A stretch of DNA of 64,000 nucleotides, taken from the NCBI RefSeq assembly GCF_048403405.1, contig NZ_CP183129.1. One strand, given 5' to 3'. Position numbers: made by a program. The DNA is from Escherichia coli (GTDB lineage Bacteria > Pseudomonadota > Gammaproteobacteria > Enterobacterales > Enterobacteriaceae). Positions 24,001 to 27,000 of the stretch are shown here, one piece after another; position 1 is the first letter of the stretch; each line of letters opens with the position of its first letter.

Positions 24001-27000
24001 TTGATCACTTTCTCTTTCCAGGTACGAATCTTGTCGATATCGGTTTTCGGTTCGCCGAAGACGATACCGTGTTCAGCCAGCGCTTTGGCTTCTTCGATAA
24101 CTTTTGCTACGTGCAGCAGTGCTTTAGAAGGGATACAGCCGACGTTCAGGCAAACACCGCCAAGGGTGTTGTAACGTTCTACGATTACGGTTTCCAGACC
24201 TAAATCAGCGCAACGGAAGGCAGCGGAGTAACCTGCGGGGCCTGCCCCAAGTACCACGACCTGAGTTTTGATTTCAGTACTCATCATGACCTCTATATAT
24301 TTATCTCCGGCGGTCATACCCGTCGTCTTTCAGGCCGCAGCGGCGTTAGCTTCACGCCCTCACCCCAGTCACTTACTTATGTAAGCTCCTGGGGATTCTG
24401 GCGCTTGCTACCTTGCTGCACCCAGAAATCCATAGGGTATGTGAAGTAATACCCTAACCACCACCGGGTCGTTCTATCCGTCGGTATTTTACAAAATTGT
24501 TAACAATTTTTAAACAACAAACGGCAACCGATTTGTCTATTCGCTAATAACCTCAATACATTCATGAGATTACCAGAAAAAAGCCGGCCGTTGGGCCGGC
24601 TCTTTTACTTACATCACCAGACGGCGAATGTCAGACAGCGTGTTGTTAATGATGGTAATGAAACGGGCACCATCAGCACCGTCGATCACGCGGTGGTCGA
24701 AGGAGAGAGAAATCGGCAGCATCAGACGCGGCACGAACTCTTTACCATTCCACACCGGCTCCATCGCGGACTTGGAAACGCCGAGGATAGCCACTTCCGG
24801 CGCGTTCACAATCGGCGCGAAGTGGGTAGTACCCAGGCCGCCGATGCTGGAGATGGTGAAGCAACCGCCCTGCATTTCGCCCGCAGTCAGCTTACCGTCA
24901 CGCGCTTTCTTAGAAATAGTCATCAGCTCGCGAGACAGCTCGATGATGCCTTTCTTGTTGACGTCTTTGAATACCGGAACAACCAGACCGTTCGGGGTAT
25001 CCACCGCCACACCGATGTTGATGTATTTCTTCAGGGTCAGACGCTGACCGTCTTCCGACAGCGAACTGTTGAAGCGAGGCATCTGCTCAAGAGCTGCAGC
25101 AACCGCTTTCATGATGAAGACAACTGGGGTTATCTTCACATCCAGCTTACGTTTCGCCGCTTCTTCGTTCTGCTGTTTACGGAACGCTTCCAGCTCGGTG
25201 ATATCGGTTTTGTCGAAGTGAGTAACATGCGGGATCATCACCCAGTTACGGCTCAGGTTCGCACCAGAGATTTTCTGGATGCGGCCCAGTTCCACTTCTT
25301 CGATTTCACCAAACTTGCTGAAGTCCACCTTCGGCCACGGCAGCATGCCAGGGATACCACCGCCAGTCGCCGCCGGAGCCGCTTCTGCACGTTTGATAGC
25401 TTCTTTCACGTAAGCCTGAACGTCTTCGCGCAGGATACGACCTTTACGGCCAGTGCCCTTCACTTTCGCCAGGTTAACGCCAAACTCGCGTGCCAGACGG
25501 CGGATCAGCGGAGTCGCGTGAACGTAAGCGTCGTTTTCAGCAAATTCAGATTTGCCTTCGGCTTTCGCAGCCGGAGCTGCTGCTGGAGCTTCAGCTTTTG
25601 CTGCCGGAGCCGGCGCTGCCGCTTCCTGTTTCGCAGGAGCTGCCGCAGGCGCTGCGCCTTCAACTTCGAAGATCATAATCAGCGAGCCAGTTTTCACTTT
25701 ATCGCCAACGTTGACTTTCAGTTCCTTCACGACGCCAGCAAACGGAGCCGGAACTTCCATAGAAGCTTTATCGCCTTCTACGGTGATCAGTGACTGTTCA
25801 GCGGCAACTTTGTCGCCCACTTTCACCATCACTTCGGTCACTTCAACTTCGTCACCGCCGATATCCGGAACGTTAACTTCTTTCACGCCAGCCGCTGATG
25901 CAGGGGCCGCTGCCGGAGCCGCTTCCTGTTTAGCCGCCGGAGCTGCCGCGCCTGCTTCACCCGCGACTTCGAAGACCATAATCAGCGAGCCGGTAGACAC
26001 TTTGTCACCCACGTTCACTTTGATCTCTTTCACGGTGCCAGCAAACGGAGCCGGAACTTCCATAGAAGCCTTGTCGCCTTCTACGGTGATCAGCGACTGT
26101 TCAGCTTCAACTTTATCGCCAACTTTCACCAGGATTTCGGTCACTTCAACTTCGTCGCTGCCGATATCCGGAACGTTAACGTCTTTTGCCGCTGCAGCCG
26201 CTGGTGCTGCTGCCGGAGCGGCTTCTTTCTTCTCTTCTGCCTGAGCAGGTGCAGCGTCTGCTGCACCGTCGGCGGAATCGAAAATCATAATCAGTGCGCC
26301 GGTCTGGGTTTTATCGCCAACAGAGACTTTGATCTCTTTAACGATACCCGCCTGCGGAGATGGTACTTCCATAGAGGCTTTGTCGCCTTCTACGGTGATC
26401 AGCGACTGTTCGGCTTCAACTTTGTCGCCCACTTTGACCAGGATCTCGGTGATTTCAACTTCATCAGCCCCGATGTCCGGTACTTTGATTTCGATAGCCA
26501 TTATTCTTTTACCTCTTAAGCCAGACGCGGGTTAACTTTATCTGCATCGATGTTGAATTTGGCGATTGCGTCAGCAACCACTTTCTTATCGATTTCGCCA
26601 CGTTTAGCCAGTTCGCCCAGCGCCGCAACCACGACATAAGAAGCATCAACTTCGAAGTGGTGACGCAGGTTCTCACGGCTGTCGGAACGACCGAAGCCAT
26701 CAGTACCCAGTACGCGGTAGTCGTCAGCCGGTACGTAAGTACGGACCTGCTCAGCGAACAGTTTCATATAGTCGGTAGATGCCACTGCCGGAGCGTCGTT
26801 CATCACCTGAGCGATGTATGGAACGCGCGGAGTTTCCAGCGGGTGCAGCATGTTCCAGCGTTCACAATCCTGACCATCACGCGCCAGCTCTGTGAAGGAG
26901 GTCACGCTATAAACGTCAGAACCTACGCCGTAATCTTTCGCCAGGATCTCTGCCGCTTCACGGACGTGACGCAGGATAGAACCGGAGCCCAGCAGCTGAA

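What the first reader, a model, noticed from the sequence alone, without database searches (positions are those of the whole stretch)
24493..24510. Perfect 18-bp palindrome in the aceF-lpd intergenic (lpd promoter) region
AAAATTGTTAACAATTTT is its own reverse complement. Its half-site AATTGTT resembles the PdhR half-site AATTGGT seen at 30136..30152, but with no spacer instead of 3 bp. It lies about 210 bp upstream of the lpd start and about 100 bp past the aceF stop. It could be an operator for a GntR-type or other dimeric regulator, or a nucleoid-protein site, acting on the independent lpd promoter.
Basis: seen in the sequence. Interest (0 to 1): 0.35.

Follow-up and report, generated by a model that had tools for sequence, protein, structure and literature searches.

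The report
Known ArcA operator in lpd promoter
The 18-bp palindrome is real, but it is the spacer of the well-studied E. coli lpd promoter and the middle of a published binding site for the oxygen-responsive repressor ArcA, so it is ordinary and already explained.

Summary
AAAATTGTTAACAATTTT is a perfect 18-bp palindrome at window 24493-24510. The window is E. coli and is identical to K-12 MG1655 here (palindrome = 127686-127703).

The palindrome alone is not significant: 27% of shuffled windows contain one. It fills the 17-bp spacer between the -35 (TTTAAA) and -10 (TAAAAT) hexamers of the independent lpd promoter, at -31 to -14 from the published start site.

It is also the centre of the published three-direct-repeat ArcA-P site, TTGTTTAAAAATTGTTAACAATTTTGTAAAATA (-38 to -6). 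That site has a ChIP-seq peak, scores 21 bits, and lpdA is derepressed 6.1-fold in an arcA mutant (Park 2013). An ArcA matrix I built without this site scores it 22.3 bits, the best hit in the 64-kb window.

PdhR is excluded. The GGTnnnACC core is absent, my PdhR matrix gives -3.2 bits, there is no gSELEX peak, and PdhR is reported not to bind the lpd promoter.

In 79 Enterobacterales loci the right arm and -10 are invariant while the left arm varies. Substitutions are one-sided, so nothing suggests selection on the symmetry itself.

Already known.

The parts
24493..24510 (.). Perfect 18-bp palindrome AAAATTGTTAACAATTTT (MG1655 127686-127703). It spans -31 to -14 relative to the lpd start site.
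   Evidence: sequence and self-complementarity. (identity to MG1655 and coordinate map: window = 152196 - MG1655 coordinate).
24485..24517 (-). Published ArcA-P binding site with three direct repeats, TTGTTTAAAAATTGTTAACAATTTTGTAAAATA (MG1655 127679-127711, -38 to -6).
   Evidence: Park et al. 2013 supplementary tables: ChIP-seq peaks at 127646 and 127683; box score 21 bits; repeat scores 9.4, 11.7 and 10.7 bits. My leave-one-out ArcA matrix gives 22.3 bits for 24517-24500(-), the top hit in the window.
24508..24517 (-). ArcA direct repeat 1, TTGTTTAAAA. Its A-tail forms the outer left arm of the palindrome.
   Evidence: for the repeat coordinate (127682). for the single-repeat score (7.2 bits).
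24497..24506 (-). ArcA direct repeat 2, TTGTTAACAA. It is itself a 10-bp palindrome and forms the core of the finding. It reads as TTGTTAA on both strands.
   Evidence: 10.9 bits on each strand.
24485..24494 (-). ArcA direct repeat 3, TTGTAAAATA, 12 bp centre-to-centre from repeat 2. It overlaps the -10 hexamer.
   Evidence: [quoted passage not shown] (8.9 bits).
24509..24514 (-). -35 hexamer TTTAAA of the lpd promoter.
   Evidence: Consensus scan. The same TTTAAA-17-TAAAAT is listed for the aceF>lpd spacer in the RpoD holoenzyme gSELEX study (PMC3946193).
24486..24491 (-). -10 hexamer TAAAAT of the lpd promoter.
24479..24479 (-). Published lpd transcription start, 195 nt upstream of the ATG (MG1655 127717).
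   Evidence: PMC2759082 states 195 nt from the lpd ATG. This agrees with Park's '-38 to -6' for 127679-127711.
24486..24503 (+). ArcA-like box in the opposite orientation, ATTTTACAAAATTGTTAA. It shares the palindromic repeat 2.
   Evidence: 19.9 bits, second-best hit in the window. The homologous box is conserved at 15.8 bits in distant Enterobacterales. Binding in this orientation is not shown.
24582..24601 (-). G+C-rich hairpin followed on the minus strand by TTTTTT. It is the intrinsic terminator-like structure after aceF, upstream of the lpd promoter.
   Evidence: The scan found the stem. The T-run on the minus strand is read from the sequence.
22860..24284 (-). lpd (lipoamide dehydrogenase) coding sequence, the gene controlled by the promoter.
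   Evidence: 100% identity to E. coli Lpd.

Best explanation
The palindrome is the spacer of the sigma-70 lpd promoter (TTTAAA-17-TAAAAT) and also the centre of the known ArcA-P operator.

Under anaerobic or microaerobic conditions, phosphorylated ArcA binds three 10-bp direct repeats: TTGTTTAAAA, TTGTTAACAA and TTGTAAAATA. Together they cover -38 to -6. This occludes RNA polymerase and represses the independent lpd promoter. Lpd made for 2-oxoglutarate dehydrogenase therefore falls together with the TCA-cycle enzymes.

The dyad symmetry comes from the sequence make-up. The middle repeat TTGTTAACAA is self-complementary (GTTAAC core). It is flanked by the A-rich tail of repeat 1 and the T-rich head of repeat 3.

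Shown in the literature: ArcA occupancy in vivo, ArcA-dependent repression, the start site, and promoter recognition by RNA polymerase. Shown here: matrix scores, position relative to the promoter, and the conservation pattern. Inferred: occlusion as the mechanism, and that the symmetry itself has no separate role.
For: Published evidence:
- (Park 2013 supplements): ArcA ChIP-seq peaks at lpdA in both replicates. The 18-bp ArcA box ttgtttaaaaattgttaa scores 21 bits. Three repeats at 127682/127693/127705 span 127679-127711, which contains the palindrome (127686-127703). The site lies at -38 to -6. lpdA rises 6.1-fold in an arcA mutant. An earlier ArcA-P binding study (Cunningham 1998) is cited.
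- ArcA sites in repressed promoters almost always overlap the sigma-70 elements.

Tested here:
- an ArcA matrix built from 114 other published boxes scores this site 22.3 bits. That is the best of about 128,000 positions in the window and higher than every training site.
- the start site, -35 and -10 place the palindrome at -31 to -14.
- the 33-bp site is nearly invariant in Enterobacteriaceae. TTAACAATT[CT]TGTAAA[AC]T is invariant in 79 Enterobacterales loci. Substitutions in the palindrome are one-sided.
Against: - I could not read the primary footprinting paper (Cunningham 1998), so the exact protected bases are second-hand.
- An 18-bp perfect palindrome is not predicted by the ArcA motif alone (about 5e-4 per simulated site). 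The symmetry therefore remains a low-probability coincidence, or reflects something extra.
- In distant families the sense repeat 1-2 box is lost (scores below 8.5 bits) although the block stays conserved. Part of the conservation must therefore come from the promoter or from a different reading of the site.
Confidence: 0.9

Rival explanations
1. The palindrome is an operator for PdhR or another GntR-family dimer. This would give pyruvate-responsive control of the internal lpd promoter.
For: The arm AATTGTT differs from the PdhR half-site AATTGGT by one base. The pdhR operon lies in the same locus. GntR-type sites often have a GT..AC core, and TTGT-TA-ACAA fits that loosely (my own recollection, not tested).
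Against: - The GGTnnnACC core found necessary for tight PdhR binding is absent, and the half-sites lack the 3-bp spacer.
- The PdhR matrix gives -3.2 bits at the palindrome, a score reached or exceeded by 1506 window positions. The true operator scores 21.5 bits.
- None of the 35 PdhR gSELEX peaks lies at about 127.7 kb.
- PdhR is reported not to bind the lpd promoter in E. coli (Cunningham 1998, as cited) or in Plesiomonas by EMSA.
- The left arm is not conserved across Enterobacterales and changes are uncompensated.
Confidence: 0.02
2. A second, unidentified dyad-reading factor or a nucleoid protein (Fis, IHF, H-NS) binds the palindrome in addition to ArcA and modulates the lpd promoter.
For: The perfect 18-bp symmetry is not explained by the ArcA motif. 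The element is AT-rich and sits in the promoter spacer. The palindrome is perfect in most Enterobacteriaceae genera sampled.
Against: - No such binding turned up in the papers I could search.
- Within Enterobacteriaceae the whole 33-bp ArcA site and promoter are equally conserved, so the palindrome shows no extra constraint.
- Where the sequence does vary, changes are one-sided (15 distinct one-mismatch or worse variants, and a single compensated pair).
- The left arm is free to vary in half of the loci.
Confidence: 0.06
3. The palindrome acts as a nucleic-acid structure. It could be a hairpin in the read-through pdhR-aceEF-lpd transcript or a DNA cruciform.
For: A perfect inverted repeat can in principle pair. 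It would be transcribed only in read-through from upstream promoters.
Against: The RNA fold of 24525-24480(-) is -5.9 kcal/mol with a z-score of -0.91, and 39 of 200 shuffles fold at least as well. The stem is almost all A-U with no loop sequence. It lies upstream of the lpd start site, so it is absent from the lpd-only transcript. No Rfam family matches at the palindrome.
Confidence: 0.01

Closest known systems
ArcA-P three-direct-repeat operators overlapping sigma-70 promoters (e.g. icdA P1; Park & Kiley 2014, Park et al. 2013)
   Same: The repeats are 10-bp TGTTA-type elements about one helical turn apart. There are three of them, and they cover the -35 to -10 elements of a carbon-oxidation gene that is repressed without oxygen. 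This very site is listed in the published ArcA tables.
   Different: Repeat 3 is at 12 bp rather than 11 bp centre-to-centre. The middle repeat is self-complementary, so an almost equally strong box (19.9 bits) can be read on the opposite strand.
PdhR box AATTGGTnnnACCAATT (GntR/FadR-type operator) at the pdhR promoter, window 30136-30152
   Same: Both are AT-rich dyads with AATTG at the outer ends, and both lie in the same gene cluster.
   Different: The palindrome has no GGT...ACC core and no 3-bp spacer. The matrix score is -3.2 against 21.5 bits. There is no gSELEX peak, and binding is reported as negative.
PhoP box (T/G)GTTTA-N5-(T/G)GTTTA, from another OmpR/PhoB-family regulator
   Same: TGTTTA-AAAAT-TGTTAA in repeats 1-2 matches this consensus in 11 of 12 positions. 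The consensus is from my own recollection and was not tested.
   Different: No evidence of PhoP control of lpd was found. The likeness probably reflects the shared 11-bp tandem-repeat logic of the family.

Membership tests
ArcA-P operator | Two or more TGTTA-type 10-bp direct repeats at about 11 bp centre-to-centre that match the ArcA box matrix | tested here: met
   The leave-one-out matrix (114 published boxes) gives 22.3 bits at 24517-24500(-). This is the top hit in the 64-kb window and above all training sites. Single-repeat scores are 7.2, 10.9 and 8.9 bits.
ArcA-P operator | ArcA occupancy of the site in vivo or in vitro | not testable with these tools
   Published: ChIP-seq peaks at 127646 and 127683 in two replicates, and a cited earlier ArcA-P binding study (Park 2013 Tables S1 and S6).
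ArcA-P operator | ArcA-dependent change in expression of the downstream gene | not testable with these tools
   Published: lpdA is 6.1-fold higher in an arcA deletion strain than in wild type under anaerobiosis.
ArcA-P operator | Overlap with the sigma-70 recognition elements of a repressed promoter | tested here: met
   The site 24485-24517 covers the -35 (24509-24514) and -10 (24486-24491) hexamers. The start site is at 24479.
PdhR (GntR/FadR-type) operator | GGTnnnACC core within AATTGGTnnnACCAATT | tested here: not met
   No GGT or ACC is present in the palindrome. The best overlapping 17-mer scores -3.2 bits against 21.5 bits for the pdhR operator.
PdhR (GntR/FadR-type) operator | Binding of purified PdhR | not testable with these tools
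   Published negative results: no gSELEX peak in the aceF-lpd spacer among 35 peaks, and PdhR is reported not to bind the lpd promoter.
Dyad-symmetric operator of a homodimeric regulator (generic) | Both arms conserved, with symmetry maintained across orthologous promoters | tested here: not met
   In 79 loci the right arm is invariant and the left arm is variable. The palindrome is perfect in 24 loci, has one broken pair in 16, and keeps 3-5 of 9 pairs in most of the rest. Nearly all changes are one-sided, with a single compensated pair.
Sigma-70 promoter | -35 and -10 hexamers with a 16-18 bp spacer at the right distance from a mapped start | tested here: met
   TTTAAA-17-TAAAAT matches 9 of 12 positions. 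The -10 lies at -12 to -7 from the published start. The same promoter is listed from RpoD holoenzyme gSELEX.

The most novel reading that the evidence does not exclude
Because the middle repeat is self-complementary, the operator may be ambidextrous. It would then hold two overlapping ArcA boxes in opposite orientations: sense at 22.3 bits and antisense at 19.9 bits. An ArcA-P dimer could load from either side of GTTAAC. In Erwiniaceae, Yersinia, Serratia and Hafniaceae only the antisense-reading box (AGTTTACAGAATTGTTAA, 15.8 bits) is conserved. It could therefore be the ancestral site, with the sense repeat 1 added later in Enterobacteriaceae, creating the palindrome. This would revise the published '12-bp-spaced repeat 3' annotation.
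Probability: 0.15. Interest if true: 0.25.

Novelty: already known. Interest (0 to 1): 0.08.

Why it matters
The lpd promoter lets E. coli make lipoamide dehydrogenase independently of the pyruvate dehydrogenase operon, so that Lpd also serves 2-oxoglutarate dehydrogenase. Repression by ArcA ties it to respiratory state. This is textbook regulation, so the finding adds nothing new. Its practical value is as a caution: an eye-catching palindrome in an AT-rich promoter can be the by-product of tandem-repeat operator and promoter-spacer sequence rather than a dimer's dyad site. The only open point, and a minor one, is the orientation and stoichiometry of ArcA on this site.

Tried and rejected
- PdhR or a GntR-type operator. 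Rejected by the matrix score, the gSELEX table and reported non-binding.
- RNA hairpin or cruciform. The fold is no better than shuffles.
- Known RNA family. Nothing reaches gathering score anywhere in 24200-24700, and no hit lies at the palindrome.
- The palindrome as an automatic consequence of the ArcA motif. Rejected by simulation: about 5e-4 per site, equal to composition-matched random sequence.
- Window-wide significance of the palindrome. Not supported: 27% of shuffles have one.
- Literature access. The primary paper by Cunningham et al. 1998 is not held. A full-text search for the sequence ATTGTTAACAATT found no paper. Searches for other regulators at the lpd promoter (Cra/CRP, FNR, a TF ChIP-seq compendium) gave only sites at the upstream pdhR promoter or nothing.
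- Candidates considered from memory and dropped for wrong spacing or missing key bases, none tested: FNR, CRP, Fur, LexA, TyrR, TrpR, CpxR, RstA, PmrA and ExuR/UxuR consensus sequences.

Full report
**Observation.** Window 24493-24510 reads AAAATTGTTAACAATTTT, a perfect 18-bp palindrome with no spacer. It cannot be extended, and it is the only perfect palindrome of 18 bp or more in the 64-kb window.

The genes here lie on the minus strand: lpd at 22860-24284, aceF at 24609-26501, then aceE and pdhR.

The region is E. coli. It is 100% identical to many genomes and identical to K-12 MG1655 over the whole spacer. The coordinate map is window = 152196 - MG1655 coordinate, so the palindrome is MG1655 127686-127703.

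**Chance.** Dinucleotide-preserving shuffles of the window contain at least one perfect 18-bp palindrome 27% of the time (mean 0.32, analytic expectation 0.24). The palindrome by itself is therefore not statistically remarkable. What matters is where it sits.

**Anatomy.**
- A consensus scan finds one promoter-like arrangement on the minus strand: TTTAAA (24514-24509), a 17-bp spacer, then TAAAAT (24491-24486).
- The same TTTAAA-17-TAAAAT is listed for the aceF>lpd spacer among constitutive promoters selected by RpoD holoenzyme in genomic SELEX (PMC3946193).
- The published lpd start site is 195 nt upstream of the ATG (PMC2759082). That is MG1655 127717, or window 24479.
- The palindrome therefore spans -31 to -14. 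It covers the last two bases of the -35 hexamer and almost the whole spacer.
- Upstream of the promoter is the G+C-rich hairpin with a T-run that follows aceF (24582-24601).

**What is known to bind.** The supplementary tables of Park et al. 2013 (PMC3798270) list the following for lpdA:
- ArcA ChIP-seq peaks in both replicates (127646 and 127683).
- An 18-bp ArcA box, ttgtttaaaaattgttaa, at 21 bits.
- A three-direct-repeat site with repeats at 127682/127693/127705 (9.4, 11.7 and 10.7 bits). It spans 127679-127711, TTGTTTAAAAATTGTTAACAATTTTGTAAAATA, at -38 to -6 from the start site.
- 6.1-fold higher lpdA expression in an arcA mutant.
- A citation of earlier ArcA-P binding work by Cunningham et al. 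1998.

The palindrome is the central 18 bp of this 33-bp site. Repeat 2 (TTGTTAACAA) is its core. The A-tail of repeat 1 and the T-head of repeat 3 are its outer arms. ArcA sites in repressed promoters almost always overlap the sigma-70 elements, and ArcA dimers read tandem repeats head-to-tail (PMC4173790).

**Independent test of the ArcA assignment.** I built a matrix from 114 published ArcA boxes, leaving out the lpd box. The lpd site scores 22.3 bits. This is the best hit on either strand of the window and higher than any training site.

Because the core is self-complementary, the opposite strand also gives a strong box: ATTTTACAAAATTGTTAA at 24486-24503(+), 19.9 bits, the second-best hit in the window.

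**Test of the PdhR idea.**
- A symmetrised matrix built from the 27 other PdhR sites of Anzai et al. 2020 scores the true pdhR operator at 21.5 bits, the top hit in the window.
- The best 17-mer overlapping the palindrome scores -3.2 bits. That score is matched or exceeded at 1506 window positions.
- The gSELEX study concluded that the GGTnnnACC core is needed for tight binding. The palindrome lacks that core and the 3-bp spacer.
- None of the 35 gSELEX peaks is in the aceF-lpd spacer.
- PMC10572922 reports that Cunningham et al. found no PdhR binding to the lpd promoter. The same paper shows a negative EMSA in Plesiomonas.

**Conservation.** A scan of one genome per species with Lpd returned 80 Enterobacterales loci, and 79 had enough upstream sequence to use.
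- The homologous block is found about 84-330 bp upstream of lpd in all 79.
- The palindrome is perfect in 24 loci and has one broken pair in 16. In most of the rest it keeps only 3-5 of 9 pairs (Erwiniaceae, Yersinia and Serratia); the Hafnia and Edwardsiella loci keep 7 of 9.
- Nearly all differences from the E. coli form are one-sided. There is a single compensated pair.
- The invariant block is TTAACAATT[CT]TGTAAA[AC]T, which is the right arm plus the -10 hexamer. The left arm is free to vary.
- This is not the pattern expected for a dyad read by a symmetric dimer. It fits promoter and repeat constraints.
- Within E. coli, the 61-bp promoter is single-copy in 5424 of 5426 genomes, at 99% identity or more in 5162.

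**A residual oddity.** Simulated three-repeat ArcA sites carry a palindrome of 18 bp or more at only about 5e-4 per site, the same rate as composition-matched random sequence. The perfect symmetry is therefore not a predictable by-product of the motif.

In the distant families the sense repeat 1-2 box is lost (below 8.5 bits). The antisense-reading box AGTTTACAGAATTGTTAA (15.8 bits) is conserved there. That conservation is confounded with the -10 hexamer. On the other hand, the invariant TG of TGTAAA fits the published sense repeat 3. Orientation therefore cannot be settled from sequence alone. This is the basis of the modest novel reading.

**Other readings.**
- As RNA, the element folds no better than shuffles (-5.9 kcal/mol, z = -0.91).
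- No Rfam family matches at the palindrome.
- No paper in the searchable library quotes the sequence.
- Searches for other regulators at the lpd promoter returned only sites at the upstream pdhR promoter.

**Verdict.** The element is the already-characterised ArcA-P operator and promoter spacer of lpd. Novelty: already known. Interest: low.

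Noticed in passing
window ~24332-24460 (minus strand, lpd 5' UTR): An ERIC/IRU repeat lies between the lpd start site and the ribosome-binding site. The standard ERIC2 and ERIC1R primer sequences (recalled from memory) match back-to-back at 24357-24378(-) and 24379-24400(+), with 1 and 2 mismatches. The 131-bp segment is multi-copy (median 5 places per genome). It is present at 99% identity or more and full length in about 3417 of 5426 complete E. coli genomes. It is absent from this position in E. coli SCPM-O-B-8794, Salmonella and Klebsiella, and present in E. albertii. It is therefore an insertion polymorphism in the lpd leader. Its effect on mRNA stability or translation was not examined.
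   Followed up: partly
L028-L081 (Erwiniaceae, Yersinia, Serratia, Hafnia, Edwardsiella), about 90-330 bp upstream of lpd: The block TTAACAATT[CT]TGTAAA[AC]T is invariant across Enterobacterales, although the upstream ArcA repeat 1 and the G of sense repeat 2 are lost. Read on the opposite strand, the block is an ArcA-like box of 15.8 bits.
   Followed up: partly
L029, L030, L038, L039, L045 (Pectobacterium, Symbiopectobacterium); L041, L055, L057 (Rahnella, Ewingella): These non-Enterobacteriaceae genera carry the E. coli-type lpd promoter (TTGTTTCAAA[AT]TTGTTAAC...GCGGATAGA). Serratia and Yersinia, which are in the same family as Rahnella, carry the other type. The distribution is patchy relative to family membership, which may point to recombination or transfer of the region.
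   Followed up: no
L031 (Hafnia) and L078 (Edwardsiella), lpd promoter: These show a longer imperfect dyad, TTTACAGAATT(G/A)TTAACAT TT(T/C)TGTAAA, with inverted CTGTAAA elements on both sides of the central TTAAC.
   Followed up: no
window 24582-24601: A strong G+C hairpin (8 pairs, 7 of them G-C) is flanked by A-runs and T-runs on both strands, directly after the aceF stop. It looks like a bidirectional intrinsic terminator, yet lpd is also reported to be co-transcribed from the pdhR promoter.
   Followed up: no
window 2197-2210, 44308-44323, 49551-49566: Other perfect palindromes of 14-16 bp: CCTGAAATTTCAGG, CCAAAGTTAACTTTGG and AGCAGAAATTTCTGCT. Their number is within chance expectation.
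   Followed up: no
window 24269-24369 (-) and 24577-24640 (-): Rfam matches well below gathering score: CssrA at 26 bits (gathering 93), overlapping the ERIC element, and OrzO-P at 32 bits (gathering 60), over the aceF terminator hairpin. These probably reflect repeat or hairpin similarity only.
   Followed up: no
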